32,000 nucleotides of DNA, taken from the NCBI GenBank assembly GCA_003144275.1, contig NJBF01000029.1, positions 1-32,000 on the forward strand. Direction: 5' to 3'. Within the stretch, counting starts at the first letter, position 1; the number at the start of each line of letters is the position of its first letter. The notes under the pieces were generated by a model that saw only the letters and a list, made by a program, of their open reading frames with translations, did not search any database and had not been told where the DNA came from. The position numbers were made by a program, and so were the translations under genes. This DNA comes from Candidatus Heimdallarchaeota archaeon B3_Heim (GTDB taxonomy: Archaea; Asgardarchaeota; Heimdallarchaeia; Hodarchaeales; Hodarchaeaceae). Of the stretch, positions 2,914-9,608 are shown piece after piece.

Positions 2914-3196
2914 AGTAGAAGGATCCTCCTATTTAGAGTGTTAAGTAAGAAAGATTTTCTGGATTTCGCTAAATGCATTTTTGAAAAGCTGGTATTATGA
3001 TTATTTAGATAAAACATCGTATTAACACCATTACAGGTGCAAATTCATCTTCTGACTTGATTGATGTTGCAATAAGCAAATTTCCTAAAATTTAAAATAT
3101 AATTCAAGTGTATTCTAGTTTAGCAGTATTTCTAACTATAATAAGCCTCGTATTCAATAAAAGAAGAAAATAGAAGAGCTCATAATAACTTGGGAA

Positions 3197-3601
3197 TTAC
3201 GCTTCTTTCCAGTCCCAGATCCCCACTTTTATCCAACGGCAGTAGGCCCAGATCCATGTTTGAATCATAATTGCTGCATCATATGCAGTAAACGTGAAAT
3301 GCCAGTCTTTCTGTGGACGCAGATAACAAATTTCGGTATGGCCATACTCATCCCGTCCATAAACATGGTGTGCCCGACTGGATATTTTCGGTACAACAAT
3401 CCATGCACGTGGTGGAGCGTTAGGGTAATTGTGCGGAAATTCGATCAATACGGTGAATGTACCGTGAGCATATTGTCCAGTAGTGGAATATTTTACTTGA
3501 ACAGCAATGTTACCATTATTTAAGTAGTAAAAATCTTTTCGCGTTAACCCTGGAAATACTCCTTTCAATTCATGCAATTCGTTCTCGACAGTACGATTCA
3601 T
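3197..3601 (-). CDS. E2/UBC-fold protein (prokaryotic E2-like), paralogue 1
   Basis: FTVLIEFPHNYPNAPP matches the UBC F-x-I-x-FP-x-x-YP-x-x-PP signature. HHVY...ICYL places a Cys at the catalytic position, followed by the conserved W (KDW). Confidence 0.8.
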   Translation of the reverse strand: MNRTVENELHELKGVFPGLTRKDFYYLNNGNIAVQVKYSTTGQYAHGTFTVLIEFPHNYPNAPPRAWIVVPKISSRAHHVYGRDEYGHTEICYLRPQKDWHFTFTAYDAAIMIQTWIWAYCRWIKVGIWDWKEA

Positions 3602-3636
3602 TACCCTACTTCCTTGTTCTACTATACTCAGTAATT

Positions 3637-4071
3637 CTAAAATATATGATCAATTACACCAGCTTCTGGCCAGTCCCATACATTCGTCTTGGTCCATCTA
3701 CAATACGTTCTAAGCCAAATTTCTACCAAAAGAGCTGTTTCATAAGAACTAAAATTGAGACGCCAGTCTTTCTTTGGGCGGAGATAACAGATACTCGCAT
3801 GACCATCCTCATCCCATCCATAAACATGGGGGGTATTTTTCAGAATTTTCGGTTTTTGAACCCATACTTTGGGGGAGCCAACTGGATAATTATAGGGAAA
3901 TTCAATCAGGATATCAAAATGACCACAGGCATATTTTCCCGTAGTAATAAAGCTTAATTGAACACATTTATTTTTATTTTTAAGTTGAAGAAAATCTTTT
4001 CTTTGTAAATCAGGGAATATTTTCTTTAATTTTTCTAATTCCCTATCGACTAAATTTCCTCTTAATGACAT
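3637..4071 (-). CDS. E2/UBC-fold protein (prokaryotic E2-like), paralogue 2
   Basis: FDILIEFPYNYPVGSP, PHVY...ICYLRPKKDW. A hand ungapped alignment to paralogue 1 gives 68/134 identities (~51%). Confidence 0.8.
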   Translation of the reverse strand: MSLRGNLVDRELEKLKKIFPDLQRKDFLQLKNKNKCVQLSFITTGKYACGHFDILIEFPYNYPVGSPKVWVQKPKILKNTPHVYGWDEDGHASICYLRPKKDWRLNFSSYETALLVEIWLRTYCRWTKTNVWDWPEAGVIDHIF

Positions 4072-4116
4072 GAATTTTACACTTCAGACGTTAGTTGTTT
4101 TGAGGATTGATCCAAT

Positions 4117-5334
4117 TTACACTTCTTCAGTTTTCTTCTCTAAGTTTGGTCCGTGAAATGGACATCCTTTATCTTTCTCTAAATCTTCATAGTAAACAAG
4201 CTCAAGTCCTTCAAAATTAATTATCTCAGTATTCGGTTTCATTATATTTCTGTTGTACCAGAGATAGAAATTAAATGGAAAGTGGTACAACCTATGTTCA
4301 TGTCCTTCTAAGAGAGTTGCTAAGCAAAACTTTGAGAGAAGAATTGTCAAATTATCAATATCTAAACCCAATCCTGGTTGGGCAAGTTGCTCCTGCATAG
4401 ACCGATCGTAAACTATTTTCTTTTCCAATTCATTGGTTGTGGGAATGCTACCTTTTGTTCCTCCATCCGTTAAAGGATATGCAAGGGAGTCAGCATATAC
4501 ACAATGATAACATAAATCATCTTTACGCGGATCCACTTTAAACAACAATCCCCCTTTCACACCATCAAAGGTTCCTGCATAAATAACTGGGAACTTCAAG
4601 TCATTGGTGTGGATGAAATCATTTATAGCAAAATTAACATCATGTTCTCCAGAAACAGCTATCAGGAGATCAATATCAGTAAATAAATCCAAGAAATAAA
4701 CAGCATCAGCTTTTGTTTGTAAAACAAATTTCTTTTCTACCGTTGTTATTTCGGTTCCTGGTATTCTTGCATGAATATAGTCTTTAACTGCCCTTGTTTT
4801 ATATCTCCCAAGGTGTCCAAGATCTGAAATATGCCGAATAATATTGTGGACTTCAAGATAATCGTTATCAATAAAGATAAATTTTTTAATTCCTGTTTTA
4901 GCAAGATACAAAGCCAAAAGAGACCCACCTGATCCCATACCAATAATAGCCACTTTTTTTTCTCTTAGTATCTTTAATGGAGTTTCTTCTTGATCAATAC
5001 GTACAAATAATCGATTAAGATCAATCATTTCTATAGCAAAATCTTGGACAACAGTAATAATTTCTTCTTTTTCAAAAATTTCTATTTTAGCAATCTTAAG
5101 GGTTTTTGAATCAAGTATCAAGTTAATAAAAGGGAACTTAAGTGAGAAATTAGGATTTGTGTTTTCTAGCGAAATATATCCAATTTGTTTAACAGTATCA
5201 GAGGTAGATGATATTTCGACAAGGTGAAACACTGTAAAATCGTCAAATATTCTTCCATACAAAGGAAAAGGATCTTCCTGAAAGTTTAATTCATTTAGTT
5301 GAGCCTTAAATTCAGGATACATGAGAAACTTCAT
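4117..5334 (-). CDS. E1-like ThiF/MoeB-family adenylyltransferase with ~110-aa N-terminal extension
   Basis: KVAIIGMGSGGS (nucleotide-binding), IDNDYLEVHNIIRH, GRYKT, Zn ligands CYHC (4501-4512) and CPFH (4153-4164). ATG at 5334, five bases after the JAB stop, is preferred over the track start at 5367. Confidence 0.9.
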   Translation of the reverse strand: MKFLMYPEFKAQLNELNFQEDPFPLYGRIFDDFTVFHLVEISSTSDTVKQIGYISLENTNPNFSLKFPFINLILDSKTLKIAKIEIFEKEEIITVVQDFAIEMIDLNRLFVRIDQEETPLKILREKKVAIIGMGSGGSLLALYLAKTGIKKFIFIDNDYLEVHNIIRHISDLGHLGRYKTRAVKDYIHARIPGTEITTVEKKFVLQTKADAVYFLDLFTDIDLLIAVSGEHDVNFAINDFIHTNDLKFPVIYAGTFDGVKGGLLFKVDPRKDDLCYHCVYADSLAYPLTDGGTKGSIPTTNELEKKIVYDRSMQEQLAQPGLGLDIDNLTILLSKFCLATLLEGHEHRLYHFPFNFYLWYNRNIMKPNTEIINFEGLELVYYEDLEKDKGCPFHGPNLEKKTEEV

Positions 5335-5339
5335 TTTTA

Positions 5340-6290
5340 TCACTTTTTGTCCTGCAAAATTTGCCAAAGAGGTTGCTCCAGAAGAGAGGGGATATCATCT
5401 TCAATATCAGTTTTTAGTAGAAGCAAAAATGGATTTATTAATTCCTTGTCATTTAAAGTCTCTGCTGGGTGAGTTTTAAATGTTATATTTTTTGACATAT
5501 CCTCTGAAGAAAAATCACAAAAGATTTTACCATCAGGGAATTCTGGGGGAAAAGATATTAATATCAATAGATTTACTAATTCTAGTTGGTCTAAGAGTTT
5601 AATTGTAAATTGATATGGGAATGATAAGACTTTTTCATCTGGTGTTTGACCTGTTAACTCTTCGATCTCATCCGTTGAAGTTAAATGATCAAAAATATTC
5701 ACAAGCTCATGTTTAACCTGTGTTAAAATATCACTTGGTACTCCTTTTTCTTCCTTTAGAGGTGTAGACATTTCTGTTCCTTCAATGGTGAAAGTCAAAT
5801 TACTTTGTGGAACACGACGAGTACGGAACGAATGGTTTTCAGTAAAACTTTCATCTCCTCGGAAGTAGACTTCAATAATTGGTTCGAACTCCACCTCTGA
5901 ATTGAAATTAATAATAAATGTCAAAATTACGTCAAGATGAGAATTTTTTCTGAAAAAATCCTCTATTTGTCTATGATCTCCGTGACTGGGACCACCGTAC
6001 CCAGGGTGCTTATGCCAATTTCCTAAATACTGTTGTTTCTCTTGCGATAAGACATTTTTTGCATATTCAGGATCTATTTCAAAATAAGCAGCTTTTCTGA
6101 CACAGTTATCGTCAGGAGGGATATGAGTCCTCACAATTTTTATAGTTAGTCGTGCTTCTTCCTCAATGACCTTCCCGAACAACATTCCACCAGTTTCTAT
6201 TTCTGGCCATAGGAAACCCTCTTTTACCATCTCATCGTATGTATCCTGAGTAATGTAGATAAATATGGACTCCGCTTGATAAGAGTACAC
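5340..6290 (-). CDS. JAB/MPN+ (JAMM) metallopeptidase with a C-terminal UBC/RWD-like domain
   Basis: ETGGMLFG (catalytic Glu) and GNWHKHPGYGGPSHGD (HxH...SxxD). GTG at 6290 follows GGGGAT; the track start is TTG 6317. The C-terminal LILISFPPEFP resembles the E2 ILIEFPYNYP. Confidence 0.85.
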   Translation of the reverse strand: MYSYQAESIFIYITQDTYDEMVKEGFLWPEIETGGMLFGKVIEEEARLTIKIVRTHIPPDDNCVRKAAYFEIDPEYAKNVLSQEKQQYLGNWHKHPGYGGPSHGDHRQIEDFFRKNSHLDVILTFIINFNSEVEFEPIIEVYFRGDESFTENHSFRTRRVPQSNLTFTIEGTEMSTPLKEEKGVPSDILTQVKHELVNIFDHLTSTDEIEELTGQTPDEKVLSFPYQFTIKLLDQLELVNLLILISFPPEFPDGKIFCDFSSEDMSKNITFKTHPAETLNDKELINPFLLLLKTDIEDDIPSLLEQPLWQILQDKK

Positions 6291-6341
6291 TGATATAATC
6301 CCCAAACTCTGGATCAAAAACTAAAAAAAGAGATATTTTAC

Positions 6342-6443
6342 CTAATAATGTTTCGATATTGGTACTGTATCTTTATTCTTTTCGGCATCTTCTGTTGCTT
6401 TCTCTTTTGACTCTGTGTCTACTCTTTTAACTGGTCGAGGCAT
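6342..6443 (-). CDS. 33-aa charged peptide MPRPVKRVDTESKEKATEDAEKNKDTVPISKHY, first gene of the JAB-E1-E2-E2 operon
   Basis: GGAG lies 9 nt upstream of the ATG, with an AT-rich TATA-like region further upstream. Same strand as, and immediately upstream of, the JAB gene. Confidence 0.55.
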   Translation of the reverse strand: MPRPVKRVDTESKEKATEDAEKNKDTVPISKHY

Positions 6444-6444
6444 T

Positions 6445-6505
6445 GTATTTTGCTCCATTAGTATGTAATTAAATACAGATTTAGTATATTTATTAATCTT
6501 TACTT
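6445..6505 (-). promoter_or_regulatory. Putative archaeal promoter and RBS for the peptide-JAB-E1-E2-E2 operon
   Basis: Minus strand reads gtaaagattaataaatata...taatggagcaaaatacaATG: purine-rich BRE-like element, TATA-like box, then GGAG. Confidence 0.4.
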
Positions 6506-6998: not shown

Positions 6999-9608
6999 TC
7001 AATCTCCATCATTTATCTTTTCATCTAATTGAGAATCTATTTCCTGCTCTTTTTCTTTATCAGAGTCTTTCTTAGAATAAAGGTTTTTAAATATGACATA
7101 CCTAGCTATTACCAGCGGTACAATTGCAAAATGGAGAAAAAGACAACCAACCCAGAGAATATTAATGTATGATATTAGCTTGATTTGAAGAGTAGAAGCT
7201 GCGAATATACCTGATACATTGTCTTCATACACGGCAATTGTAACGATATAGATATCGAGAAGAATATCACTGATAAGAGTGACCGATTGATCTGGTCTAT
7301 TAGCTCGATCAAACGCTAGACGGCTTAATCCATAACCAACGATTCGATTACCAGATTTAATCAAAAATACGGTATCGTATCTGACAGCATCGTGTCCAGA
7401 TTCAGGATAGGTTCGATCTATATCTGTTATTTCAATTTTTAAGGAACTACCTGGAATTGGATATTCTCCACCCTGTCTAACCTCTTGAATTTCAGTTGTA
7501 ATTGTCATATTTGCACTGGTTATTGCTCCGAGGAGAATAAGTAATATTGATAGATGTAACATAGTTTGAGATGTTTTACGAAGTAAATGCTTCTCCTCGG
7601 TCATAGTGACATTGACGAATTCATATATTAGTCCGAATACTCCAAGAAGTAATAACGGTAACACTAAATTTGCTTTGTCACTCGAAGTCCAGAAATTAGT
7701 AAGGAAGGAGATTATTGGATTTCCACTGCCAAGAAAAGAAGGAAGGGACTCATTTCGATAAAAAATACCCCCTATCATAAATACAATTCCAACAATTCCT
7801 CCTCCAATGAGTAATTGGGTCTTACGTCGAACTGTAAATCGGGGGAAGAATGTACAGAAAAATTGAGCCAATAGCATTATGCCTCCAAATAATGTTAGTA
7901 TCGTGTTGTAAAAATATATATCTATTGTAATGTCATGTACAAATCCGTCTGGTCGGTATACTTCAATGCTATAGAGCATTCGCGAGATTGCATTTTCGAA
8001 ATACACTACGATTGGGTCTGTGAGAAGATGCCCAAAAATGTCATATATAACTGGAAAAAGCACGCTGAGAATTACTATATACATTCCAATTAATAATGCA
8101 ACGTTACGTCTATATTTTGTAACAGTAGGCTCAGAACTACTCAGAAAATTATTTATTCGTTTAATCTGATCCTTCTCAAAACCGATGTAATAGAGGAGAT
8201 ATAAGAAAAATCCCAGATAAATGATTAGAGAAAAGGTCGTTGGATAAAGTATTGTTTTACTAAACGCGATACCAAACAAAAGCAGAAGATCGTACAAAAA
8301 CGAGTACACTTCAAATAGTATTGGAGCTGTAAGAAGCAAACCAATGGCGTCATAAATGACTGGAAAAAGTAACCCCAGGATCATTGTATAGGTTCCAAGA
8401 AACAATGCTATGTATGATAATTTGAGAGCAGTACTTCGAATTTTTGAGGTTGTGAAGTCAGATCTTGTTAGAAAGTATGAAATTCTCCTGAATTGACCTT
8501 TTTTAAACCCAAGGTAATGTAGGAGGAACAAGAAAATCATCATACAAATGAAGAGAAATAGCATTCTTTCATCTGGTATTACTCTTAGAATCAATTTCAT
8601 GAGAAAGCTATCTGCTGGTATGAATGTCGATAATACTTGATCTAAGGAACCTCCGGGAGAAAATGTGTGGACACTTGAAATTATTGCGCTCCGTGTTAAG
8701 TAAGTGGCAGCTAAGGCACTTAAATAAGACATACTTATAATATAATTTCCAAGGTATTCGTTTTTCCTATGATAATTTGATTTTCCATGATAGAATATAG
8801 TAAGAAATAGCCAAGGCATTAAGGAAGCTGTTTCAACAGGATCCCAAGCCCAGAAACCACCCCAACCAAGTGTGATATAGGCCCAATACGCACCGATAAT
8901 GATTCCTGAACTCATGAATAGCCAAGCAAGCGAAACCAAGAATTCAAAGAATGAGTCCAGTTTTTCTTTACCTTCAAAGTCGGGTACTTTACCATCTTCT
9001 AGAATTGATATCCGAATGAACCCAATAACCATAGGTATCAGACATAAGATATATCCGAGTAGAATCATTGGTGGATGAATGATGTTCCATATGTTCATCA
9101 AGGTAGGATTTAATCCTGTTCCATCAGCTATTGTAAACGTGTTAATTTTGAATGGATCACTCATAATTGTTAGGGTGATGAAGATAGCTATTTGAGCAGC
9201 CAAGAGGACAAATGAGCGCCAAAAAAAAGTCTCATGGGCATATTCTCGAAACATTGTTCTGAATATGAGATAGAGAACTACGCCAAAGAAAGTCCAGAAG
9301 AAATATGAGCCAGCCTGGCCTGACCAAATAGCAGATAGCCTTAGGAAGAAGTCCATACTATTGCTAACATGCGCACTCACATATACAAAACTGTAGTCTG
9401 CTGTTATTACTGAGTAACCGAAATAGAAAAATGAGACAAGTACTGCTGAGCAACCAATAATTAAACCTAATTCAGAATAAGTTTCCCAATCTTCATATTT
9501 CTCTCCGAAAATCACGAATATCGCGTCAATGATAAAGGCAATCAAGCTTACTAGAAGCAAGAGTAAACCTAAATCGATTCCAAGTGTTCCTATACCGATG
9601 AAAATCAT
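6999..9608 (-). CDS. ccmF: Cytochrome c heme lyase CcmF/NrfE family, unusually long (869 aa)
   Basis: WSGQAGS, GLNPTL...IHPP, WGGFWAWDPVETASLMPW (WWD domain), SVHTF, HLSILL. Confidence 0.93.
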   Translation of the reverse strand: MIFIGIGTLGIDLGLLLLLVSLIAFIIDAIFVIFGEKYEDWETYSELGLIIGCSAVLVSFFYFGYSVITADYSFVYVSAHVSNSMDFFLRLSAIWSGQAGSYFFWTFFGVVLYLIFRTMFREYAHETFFWRSFVLLAAQIAIFITLTIMSDPFKINTFTIADGTGLNPTLMNIWNIIHPPMILLGYILCLIPMVIGFIRISILEDGKVPDFEGKEKLDSFFEFLVSLAWLFMSSGIIIGAYWAYITLGWGGFWAWDPVETASLMPWLFLTIFYHGKSNYHRKNEYLGNYIISMSYLSALAATYLTRSAIISSVHTFSPGGSLDQVLSTFIPADSFLMKLILRVIPDERMLFLFICMMIFLFLLHYLGFKKGQFRRISYFLTRSDFTTSKIRSTALKLSYIALFLGTYTMILGLLFPVIYDAIGLLLTAPILFEVYSFLYDLLLLFGIAFSKTILYPTTFSLIIYLGFFLYLLYYIGFEKDQIKRINNFLSSSEPTVTKYRRNVALLIGMYIVILSVLFPVIYDIFGHLLTDPIVVYFENAISRMLYSIEVYRPDGFVHDITIDIYFYNTILTLFGGIMLLAQFFCTFFPRFTVRRKTQLLIGGGIVGIVFMIGGIFYRNESLPSFLGSGNPIISFLTNFWTSSDKANLVLPLLLLGVFGLIYEFVNVTMTEEKHLLRKTSQTMLHLSILLILLGAITSANMTITTEIQEVRQGGEYPIPGSSLKIEITDIDRTYPESGHDAVRYDTVFLIKSGNRIVGYGLSRLAFDRANRPDQSVTLISDILLDIYIVTIAVYEDNVSGIFAASTLQIKLISYINILWVGCLFLHFAIVPLVIARYVIFKNLYSKKDSDKEKEQEIDSQLDEKINDGD
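8010..8528 (-). repeat. Internal tandem duplication within CcmF (aa ~362-430 and ~471-533)
   Basis: LLHYLGFKKGQFRRISYFL...ALFLGTYTMILGLLFPVIYDAIGLLLTAPI versus LLYYIGFEKDQIKRINNFL...ALLIGMYIVILSVLFPVIYDIFGHLLTDPI. Confidence 0.8.

What the first reader, a model, noticed from the sequence alone, without database searches (positions are those of the whole stretch)
6342..6443. 33-aa Lys/Asp/Glu-rich peptide as candidate modifier or RiPP-like precursor
Seen: MPRPVKRVDTESKEKATEDAEKNKDTVPISKHY has 6 Lys, 7 Asp/Glu, no Gly and no Cys, and has a well-spaced GGAG. A T-rich tract (ctcttttttagttttt) separates it from the JAB gene, which could give excess peptide transcript. Established: Pup and UBact are disordered tags but use a PafA-type ligase, and MccB is a ThiF enzyme that adenylates a short peptide C-terminus. 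Inference: the E1 may activate a non-Gly C-terminus (Tyr, or a residue exposed by JAB trimming), or the Lys residues may be acceptors for cyclisation or polymerisation. Gene callers would probably miss this ORF.
Basis: partly seen in the sequence, partly recalled or inferred. Interest (0 to 1): 0.78.

Follow-up and report, generated by a model that had tools for sequence, protein, structure and literature searches.

The report
Conserved mini-peptide partner of E1-E2-JAB cassette
A 33-residue gene in an Asgard (Hodarchaeales) archaeon is real, more conserved than the ubiquitin-type enzymes (JAB, E1, two E2s) it always precedes, and looks like a tail-only stand-in for ubiquitin that ends in an aromatic residue instead of Gly-Gly.

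Summary
The ORF lies on the minus strand at 6342-6443 (33 codons plus TAG), and its composition, GGAG and T-rich spacer are as described.

It is a real gene. In 12 species of the genus the peptide is 85-100% identical, while the adjacent JAB is 41-67% and the E1 54-76% identical. Changes sit at third codon positions (pN/pS 0.08). The longer 63-aa reading is broken by stops in relatives.

The peptide is single-copy. It was found only where the JAB-E1-E2-E2 cassette is, and always directly upstream of it.

Homologous peptides precede related cassettes in Nitrososphaeraceae (51-54 aa), in an unassigned metagenome group (44-48 aa) and, in a longer form, in Chloroflexota. All share a C-terminal block ending [KR][HW][YF]. 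This is followed by nothing, by a short variable tail, or, in one bacterial case, by a second tandem unit. That is the pattern of ubiquitin precursors.

The enzymes score best against CBASS Cap2/Cap3 models, a system whose E1 binds only a disordered C-terminal tail.

Best reading (about 0.55): a peptide without a beta-grasp fold is trimmed by JAB, adenylated at the aromatic C-terminus by the E1 and passed to an E2 cysteine. No biochemistry exists, and co-folding gave no verdict. I found no prior description. The scan had not noted this on other DNA.

The parts
6488..6501 (-). Conserved A/T-rich box (aaagattaataaat), a candidate archaeal BRE/TATA promoter for the peptide gene
   Evidence: Nearly invariant in all 12 same-genus loci, about 45-58 nt upstream of the start codon, while surrounding DNA diverges. 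Its promoter function is inferred.
6453..6456 (-). GGAG Shine-Dalgarno-like motif 9 nt before the ATG
   Evidence: Read from the sequence. (A/T)GGAG is kept at the same distance in all 12 loci.
6342..6443 (-). 33-codon peptide gene plus TAG stop. N-terminal MPRPVK; acidic and Lys-rich middle; C-terminal TVPISKHY.
   Evidence: 85-100% amino-acid identity across 12 species; pN/pS 0.08; variable columns 7/4/30 by codon position. Single copy in the genome. No Rfam match, and RNA fold z-score -1.2.
6316..6333 (-). Pyrimidine- and T-rich spacer (T7 and T5 runs) between the peptide stop and the JAB gene
   Evidence: Similar T-rich spacers follow the stop in the other Hodarchaeales loci. A role as a partial archaeal terminator is inferred only.
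5340..6290 (-). JAB/MPN+ metalloprotease with an extra C-terminal region. The start is probably GTG 6290, preceded by GGGGA; the ORF listing begins the ORF at TTG 6317.
   Evidence: Pfam Prok-JAB and PADLOC CBASS JAB models, best E 1.7e-12. The ETGG Glu and the WHKH...PS.GD JAMM motif are kept across the archaeal clades. The start is inferred from the conserved AGGGGAT followed by TTG or GTG in relatives.
4117..5367 (-). ThiF/E1 adenylating enzyme with an N-terminal pseudo-MPN domain (about residues 12-115). The true start may be the ATG at residue 12.
   Evidence: Pfam ThiF 1.1e-23. PADLOC CBASS E1-E2 (Cap2) models, best E 4e-28. Best Foldseek PDB hit is Cap2 7to3_A. The N-domain model matches MPN proteins at Z 7.5-8.3. 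Many homologues start at the MK(I/F)L position.
3637..4071 (-). E2-like protein a (UBC fold, H...C motif)
   Evidence: Weak Pfam UQ_con and RWD hits; PADLOC CBASS E2 1.6e-9; His and Cys invariant in the alignment.
3197..3601 (-). E2-like protein b, a paralogue of a and the second most conserved gene of the cassette
   Evidence: It is 73-92% identical across the genus.

Best explanation
The ORF encodes a real 33-residue, probably disordered protein. I propose that it is the dedicated substrate (modifier or tag) of the adjacent Cap2/Cap3-like machinery. Proposed cycle:
1. The peptide is made from its own promoter and ribosome-binding site.
2. Where a C-terminal tail or a second unit follows the aromatic residue, the JAB metalloprotease cuts just after it. 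In this window the gene already ends at Tyr33.
3. The conserved C-terminal block (TVPISKHY) enters the E1 adenylation site, and the Tyr33 carboxylate is adenylated.
4. The peptide is passed as a thioester to the conserved Cys of one or both E2s.
5. It is then attached to an amine on a target, or on another peptide copy.
6. JAB can remove it again.

Shown here: the gene is real, it is strictly linked to the cassette, the C-terminal motif with variable tails is conserved across phyla, the enzymes keep their catalytic motifs, and they resemble CBASS Cap2/Cap3. Inferred: every chemical step, the cleavage site and the target.
For: 1. Purifying selection on the amino-acid sequence: pN/pS 0.08, and variable columns 7/4/30 by codon position.
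2. The peptide is the most conserved cassette gene: 85-100% identity, against E2b 73-92, E2a 58-88, E1 54-76 and JAB 41-67. Ubiquitin shows the same relation to its enzymes.
3. Strict linkage. It is single-copy in the genome. Among 400 genomes of the phylum it was found only in the 11 same-genus genomes that also have the JAB gene. It is always directly upstream. The flanking genes differ between species, so the five genes travel as a unit.
4. Homologous peptides precede related cassettes elsewhere:
   - Nitrososphaeraceae: 51-54 aa, MPRDLK...TIPNIKHF, then [YF] plus a variable 2-5 aa tail.
   - An unassigned metagenome group...T[VI]PVTKHY, ending there or followed by FLL or LRYHEP.
   - Chloroflexota and other bacteria...KP[ST]RW[YF].
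   - Two Hodarchaeales species add S or RN after the Tyr.
   - One bacterial gene holds two tandem units, each ending KPTRWF, directly upstream of E2-JAB-E1. This is the logic of a polyubiquitin precursor.
5. The enzymes look active. The E2 His and Cys are invariant, the JAMM motif is kept in the archaeal clades, and the E1 nucleotide-binding Gly motif and Arg are invariant.
6. The enzymes score best against CBASS Cap2/Cap3 models. In CBASS the E1 site holds only the last ~7 residues of a disordered tail, and Cap3 cuts exactly after the last residue (bioRxiv 10.1101/2022.03.31.486616).
7. The cassette has no beta-grasp gene. The two ubiquitin genes of this genome lie elsewhere, each beside its own ThiF E1.
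Against: - There is no biochemical or proteomic evidence of any kind.
- An aromatic C-terminal residue is not known from memory to be adenylated by any characterised E1. Known cases use Gly, Ala or Asn.
- The E1 has no conserved Cys outside its predicted zinc site (CxxC plus C..H). The nearly invariant Cys181 of homologues is Ser in this window. An E1 thioester step is therefore doubtful, and the transfer route is unclear.
- No target or effector gene lies in the archaeal cassette.
- In Nitrososphaeraceae the residue after KHF is itself a conserved aromatic, so the exact mature end is ambiguous.
Confidence: 0.55

Rival explanations
1. The peptide is a non-covalent regulator, adaptor or pseudo-substrate. 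It would bind JAB, the E1 pseudo-MPN domain or an E2 through its conserved ends, and gate or direct a cascade whose real donor is something else.
For: It is short, charged and probably disordered. Both ends (MPR... and ...KH[YF]) are conserved, not only the C-terminus. In several clades the ORF overlaps the JAB start, which suggests stoichiometric co-translation with JAB. The archaeal cassette holds no identifiable target.
Against: This reading does not explain why the conserved block stops exactly at an aromatic residue with variable or absent tails, nor the tandem two-unit precursor. No alternative donor is encoded in the cassette.
Confidence: 0.2
2. The peptide is a RiPP-like precursor. The ThiF enzyme would adenylate the peptide C-terminus for an intramolecular or nucleotide-adding reaction, as in MccB or PaaA, and JAB would act as the leader or follower peptidase. 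There would be no conjugation to proteins.
For: The E1 profile matches MccB and PaaA about as well as ThiF or UBA5 by sequence. Short-peptide substrates of ThiF enzymes are established (PMC12250964).
Against: One or two E2s with an invariant catalytic Cys accompany the system in every clade. The E1 N-domain resembles MPN domains and not a listed peptide clamp. The cassette holds no exporter, immunity or further tailoring gene. The whole peptide is under strong constraint, rather than showing a leader/core split. The ThiF-RiPP review mentions no JAB-containing clusters.
Confidence: 0.12
3. The peptide is the acceptor, a Lys-rich target, or a degron-like handle. It would be modified by a ubiquitin encoded elsewhere in the genome using this E1/E2 set.
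For: The peptide has six Lys, three of them invariant within the genus. The genome carries two ubiquitin genes.
Against: Each ubiquitin gene has its own adjacent ThiF E1. In the 400 phylum genomes searched, the cassette and peptide were found together in about half of the genus and not with this query outside it. Only K6 and K31 are broadly conserved across clades, whereas the C-terminal aromatic block is universal.
Confidence: 0.1
4. The ORF is a chance ORF, or a translated leader with only a cis-regulatory role.
For: It is very short, lies upstream of an operon and is followed by a T-rich tract.
Against: The amino-acid sequence is conserved at pN/pS 0.08 with near-saturated synonymous sites. 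Homologues occur in other phyla. There is no RNA family match and no significant RNA fold.
Confidence: 0.03

Closest known systems
Type II CBASS Cap2 (E2-E1) / Cap3 (JAB) acting on the CD-NTase C-terminal tail
   Same: The E1, E2 and JAB here score best against these models. In CBASS the substrate is not a beta-grasp protein, the E1 site holds only the last ~7 residues of a disordered tail, and Cap3 cuts exactly after the last residue. A free peptide that is essentially only such a tail fits this logic.
   Different: The cassette holds no CD-NTase and no effector gene. E1 and E2 are separate proteins, and Hodarchaeales have two E2s. The E1 carries an N-terminal pseudo-MPN domain. The substrate is a free 33-aa peptide ending in Tyr, whereas V. 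cholerae cGAS ends in Gly. The hosts here are archaea.
Ubiquitin/Ubl systems, including bacterial Bil and Bub and the Asgard ubiquitin systems
   Same: Operon logic of modifier, E1, E2 and JAB. The modifier is the most conserved gene. Relatives show precursor-like variable C-terminal tails and a tandem-unit gene.
   Different: At 33 aa the peptide cannot form a beta-grasp fold, and it has no Gly at all. The C-terminus is aromatic. The genome's true ubiquitin genes lie elsewhere with their own E1s.
Pup / UBact
   Same: A small, charged, probably disordered tag rather than a folded domain.
   Different: Pup uses a PafA/Dop ligase of an unrelated fold and a C-terminal Gln/Glu side chain. No Pup_ligase match was found in this genome, which is 94% complete. 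The neighbours here are E1, E2 and JAB.
MccB-MccA and PaaA-PaaP (ThiF enzymes acting on short ribosomal peptides)
   Same: A ThiF-family adenylating enzyme paired with a very short gene-encoded peptide whose C-terminal end is the likely reaction site.
   Different: Catalytic-Cys E2s and a JAB protease are present. The E1 N-domain is MPN-like. The cassette holds no export or immunity genes. The peptide is 33-60 aa and highly conserved along its whole length.

Membership tests
Ubiquitin-like (beta-grasp) modifiers | Beta-grasp fold of about 70-100 residues | tested here: not met
   The mature ORF is 33 residues. The longer 63-aa reading is broken by stops in relatives. No Pfam match.
Ubiquitin-like (beta-grasp) modifiers | C-terminal Gly-Gly (or Gly) as the activated end | tested here: not met
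   The peptide has no Gly. The conserved end is KHY, or [KR][HW][YF] across the family.
Ubiquitin-like (beta-grasp) modifiers | Encoded with E1, E2 and a deconjugating peptidase; precursors with variable tails or tandem units | tested here: met
   The peptide lies directly upstream of JAB-E1-E2(-E2) in every locus examined. Tails: S, RN, FLL, LRYHEP, [YF]NDS and others. A tandem two-unit gene exists.
Type II CBASS (Cap2/Cap3 with CD-NTase) | E1, E2 and JAB of the Cap2/Cap3 type | tested here: met
   PADLOC E1-E2 4e-28, E2 1.6e-9, JAB 1.7e-12. Foldseek top hit is Cap2 7to3_A. Relatives' E2s carry Pfam E2-CBASS.
Type II CBASS (Cap2/Cap3 with CD-NTase) | CD-NTase and a nucleotide-activated effector in the operon | tested here: not met
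   The cassette neighbours are CcmE/CcmF and MoxR/DUF4129 in this window, and differ in other species. No nucleotidyltransferase lies in the five-gene unit.
Pup / UBact tagging | PafA/Dop-type ligase | tested here: not met
   No PF03136 match in the own genome, which is 94% complete. None in the cassette.
Pup / UBact tagging | Disordered tag ending in Gly-Gly-Gln/Glu | tested here: not met
   The peptide ends in Lys-His-Tyr. Disorder itself was not measured.
ThiF-dependent RiPPs (MccB/PaaA type) | N-terminal peptide-clamp / RRE-like domain on the ThiF enzyme | tested here: inconclusive
   The N-domain model (pLDDT 80) matches MPN/JAB-fold proteins at Z 7.5-8.3, and MccB is not among the listed matches. 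An unlisted family is not excluded.
ThiF-dependent RiPPs (MccB/PaaA type) | Cluster with export, immunity or tailoring genes and no E2 or deconjugase | tested here: not met
   Two catalytic-Cys E2s and an active-looking JAB are present. No transporter lies in the cassette.

The most novel reading that the evidence does not exclude
These peptides form a previously undescribed class of protein modifier. They are short and disordered, have no beta-grasp fold, and end in an aromatic residue. They would be matured by a JAB protease from tailed or tandem precursors and conjugated by a Cap2-like E1 and E2 cascade. The class occurs in Asgard (Hodarchaeales), Nitrososphaeraceae and Chloroflexota. If true, E1-E2 chemistry needs only a C-terminal tail, and ubiquitin-type tagging can run without ubiquitin.
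Probability: 0.45. Interest if true: 0.9.

Novelty: new variant of a known kind. Interest (0 to 1): 0.8.

Why it matters
E1-E2 conjugation is normally tied to beta-grasp modifiers. The only established exception is CBASS, where a whole enzyme is attached through its tail.

A free 33-60 residue peptide that keeps only the tail would be the minimal form of a ubiquitin-type tag. It is better conserved than its enzymes and shows precursor features (variable tails, a tandem unit). It would also show that an E1 can accept an aromatic C-terminus.

It occurs in Hodarchaeales, a group discussed as close kin of eukaryotes, alongside true ubiquitin systems. It also occurs in soil ammonia oxidisers. This makes a simple, directly testable system: five small genes that can be reconstituted in vitro. 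It bears on how substrate recognition by E1, E2 and deubiquitinases evolved.

Tried and rejected
- **Co-folding.** I co-folded the E1 dimer with the peptide (complex prediction). The score was 0.03 against a mark of 0.32, so there is no verdict. It is not evidence either way.
- **Expression.** No listed holder run is on record as RNA. Two libraries labelled metatranscriptomic, but flagged as probably DNA, have contigs over the ORF. Contigs cannot show expression. Several contigs match only 6344-6444 and diverge outside it, which merely restates the conservation.
- **Database matches for the peptide.** Pfam, NCBIfam and PADLOC gave nothing. The ESM Atlas holds the exact sequence but gave no usable neighbour.
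- **RNA alternative.** There was no Rfam match, and the fold z-score was -1.2. An RNA-element reading is rejected.
- **The 63-aa ORF from ATG 6533.** Rejected, because relatives have in-frame stops there.
- **Literature.** Seven full-text searches and four papers read found no description of such peptides. This shows only that nothing was found in that library.
- **Spurious hits.** P0118 (a transporter clustered with the peptides) and P0124 (a repeat protein) were set aside.
- **Sequence search of the PDB with E2a and JAB.** Only weak hits to UBC and Rpn11.

Full report
**What is there**

The finding lies on the minus strand: ATG at 6443, 33 codons, TAG at 6344-6342. GGAG sits 9 nt before the ATG. 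T7 and T5 runs lie between the stop and the next gene.

Downstream on the same strand are four genes:
- a JAB/MPN+ protease, 5340-6290 or 5340-6317;
- a ThiF/E1 enzyme, 4117-5367;
- two paralogous E2-like proteins, 3637-4071 and 3197-3601.

Upstream are ccmF/ccmE-like genes. Further downstream are MoxR and DUF4129 genes. E1 homologues carry source names such as Candidatus Hodarchaeales, Hodarchaeota and Heimdallarchaeota, so the organism is an Asgard archaeon.

**Is the ORF real?**

Yes. A search of 60 related genomes found the JAB gene in 12 of 21 other species of the genus. In all 11 of those loci that include upstream DNA, the same 33-codon ORF lies directly upstream.

- Peptide identity to the window is 85-100%. 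JAB is 41-67%, E1 54-76%, E2a 58-88% and E2b 73-92%.
- Nucleotide differences fall on third codon positions: variable columns number 7, 4 and 30.
- Summed pairwise pN/pS is 0.08, with pS of 0.4-0.8.
- All three stop codons occur, and one species starts with TTG at the same codon.
- The alternative 63-aa reading from ATG 6533 is interrupted by stops in most relatives.
- There is no Rfam match and no unusual RNA fold.
- An A/T-rich box (aaagattaataaat) about 45-58 nt upstream and the GGAG are conserved in all 12 loci. This suggests the gene has its own archaeal promoter and ribosome-binding site; that is an inference.
- The exact sequence is already in public gene calls; one sequence of its cluster carries the name 'hypothetical protein'. 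The remark that callers would miss it is therefore wrong.

**Linkage**

The peptide is single-copy in this genome. With a peptide profile, 400 genomes of the phylum gave matches only in the same 11 species of the genus that also have the JAB gene. The twelfth JAB-positive genome has its contig end inside JAB. The flanking ccm and MoxR genes are shared only by the three closest relatives. Other species have different neighbours, so peptide-JAB-E1-E2a-E2b moves as a five-gene unit.

**A wider family**

I followed distant E1 homologues (31-37% identity) and a scan of one genome per species with an E1 alignment. Related cassettes turned up in Nitrososphaeraceae, in Chloroflexota and in unassigned metagenome contigs. 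Each has a short ORF next to the enzymes.

- **Nitrososphaeraceae.** In eleven loci a 51-54 aa ORF overlaps the JAB start. It reads MPRDLK..., a helix-like middle, then ...VTIPNIKHF, followed by Y or F and a variable 2-5 residue tail.
- **Unassigned metagenome group.** ORFs of 44-48 aa begin MPR[DE] and end ...T[VI]PVTKHY. They stop there, or continue with FLL or LRYHEP.
- **Alignment.** The archaeal forms share MPR[PD] at the start, an acidic stretch, and T[VI]P..KH[YF] at the end. The Hodarchaeales form lacks the middle segment.
- **Bacterial cassettes** (order E2-JAB-E1). Peptides of about 60 aa end ...KP[ST]RW[YF]. One widely sampled gene holds two tandem units, each ending KPTRWF. The first is followed by a spacer and the second by a 3-residue tail, and the gene lies directly upstream of E2-CBASS, JAB and ThiF genes.
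- **Hodarchaeales variants.** Two species add S or RN after the Tyr.
- **Profile search.** A search of 1.84 billion proteins returned 10 hits at E <= 0.001. Nine resemble the archaeal or bacterial peptide forms and one is a spurious repeat protein. The three hits whose genomic context I looked up all lie beside such cassettes.

In short, the conserved block ends exactly at an aromatic residue. What follows is absent, variable, or another unit. This is the signature of a processing and activation site, as in ubiquitin precursors.

**The enzymes**

- The E1, E2s and JAB score best against the CBASS Cap2 (E1-E2), E2 and Cap3 (JAB) models of PADLOC. They score weakly against the 6A-MBL fusion model of NCBIfam.
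- The best Foldseek PDB hit of the E1 model is Cap2. By sequence alone the E1 is equidistant from ThiF, MoeB, MccB, UBA5, PaaA and Cap2.
- The E2 His...Cys motif is invariant in both paralogues and in the other clades.
- The JAB ETGG Glu and the HxH...S..D motif are kept in the archaeal clades.
- The first ~115 residues of the E1, modelled at pLDDT 80, match MPN-fold proteins (Rpn8/Rpn11, BRCC36 partner, Cap3, a bacterial Ubl deubiquitinase) at Z 7.5-8.3. This domain has no HxH motif (read from the sequence). It is therefore a pseudo-MPN domain. Z near 8 is borderline, but the uniformity of the list is persuasive.
- Some distant relatives are true JAB-E1 fusions. By analogy with Rpn8-Rpn11-type pairs, the pseudo-MPN domain could dock the active JAB protein onto the E1. 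This is an inference.

**Mechanism proposed**

In CBASS the E1 site holds only the last ~7 residues of a disordered tail of cGAS, and Cap3 cuts exactly after the final residue (bioRxiv 10.1101/2022.03.31.486616). A free peptide that is little more than a conserved tail fits that enzyme logic.

I therefore propose the following. JAB trims any tail. The E1 adenylates the aromatic C-terminus. The peptide moves to an E2 Cys and then to an amine on a target or on another peptide copy. JAB reverses the attachment.

The genome's two true ubiquitin genes lie on other contigs, each beside its own ThiF E1. They are therefore unlikely donors for this cassette. No Pup ligase was found in the genome, which is 94% complete.

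**Weak points**

- None of the chemistry is shown.
- From memory, no characterised E1 uses an aromatic C-terminus.
- The only conserved Cys residues in the E1 look like a zinc site (CxxC plus C..H). The nearly invariant Cys181 of homologues is Ser here. The route from adenylate to E2 is therefore unclear, and direct transfer or an oxyester route as in Bub systems is possible.
- No target is evident.
- In Nitrososphaeraceae the residue after KHF is itself aromatic, so the mature end could lie one residue further on.
- Co-folding gave no verdict, and no usable RNA data exist.

**Rivals**

I considered a non-covalent regulator or pseudo-substrate (0.2), a RiPP-like precursor (0.12), an acceptor for an unlinked ubiquitin (0.1), and a chance or leader ORF (0.03). 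The arguments are given in the Rival explanations section.

**Novelty**

Full-text searches and the papers I read found no description of such peptides. These included the 2006 survey of prokaryotic E1/E2/JAB operons, the CBASS Cap2 paper and a 2025 review of ThiF-dependent RiPPs.

The enzymes are of a known kind. The partner, a peptide without a beta-grasp fold and with an aromatic end, is new. I file it as a new variant of a known kind, with high interest.

Noticed in passing
window 4984-5367 (-), E1 residues 1-128: The E1 carries an N-terminal domain whose model (pLDDT 80) matches MPN/JAB-fold proteins at Z 7.5-8.3 but lacks the HxH metal motif. It is a pseudo-MPN domain that might pair with the active JAB protein. 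Distant relatives (P0075, P0076) are true JAB-E1 fusions.
   Followed up: partly
L063:4364-4735 (P0129; also L064, L065): A 123-aa bacterial gene holds two tandem peptide units, each ending KPTRWF. It lies directly upstream of E2-CBASS, a 575-aa JAB protein and ThiF, in a polyubiquitin-like arrangement. It was seen on 12 contigs.
   Followed up: partly
L057:2319-3017: In a Dehalococcoidia genome a peptide-like segment (...KPVSTIKENIWY) is fused in frame to the N-terminus of the E2. A transposase-like ORF (3101-4396) sits between the E2 and the E1.
   Followed up: no
L030:2300-2515: Upstream of an E2 and a JAB-E1 fusion lies a 71-aa ORF. It has a similar D.G+L motif but ends ...REWGGA, a possible Gly-Gly-type cousin of the aromatic-ended peptides.
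   Followed up: no
own genome, contig C10 25333-26542 and contig C86 28210-30031: Two canonical ubiquitin-family genes (PF00240, over cut-off) each lie next to a ThiF E1. The genome has five ThiF genes in all. So the organism runs ubiquitin-type systems in parallel with the peptide cassette.
   Followed up: partly
window 4825-4827 (-), E1 residue 181: The residue after the HNIIRHI motif is Cys in over 90% of aligned homologues but Ser in this window's E1. Apart from the predicted zinc site, the E1 has no other conserved Cys.
   Followed up: partly
L045:3303-3387 and 7001-7020: In one Nitrososphaeraceae genome a tRNA-Ser gene lies about 420 nt upstream of the cassette. A 20-nt, 85% match to the tRNA 3' part lies just downstream of the cassette. 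This may mark a small integrated island, or may just be a T-arm look-alike.
   Followed up: no
window 5343-5750 (-), JAB C-terminal region: The JAB protein has about 150 extra C-terminal residues containing an FPPEFPDG stretch that resembles the E2/RWD core.
   Followed up: no
window 6323: Metagenome contigs from two DNA runs show a one-base shorter T run in the peptide-JAB spacer (strain variation).
   Followed up: no
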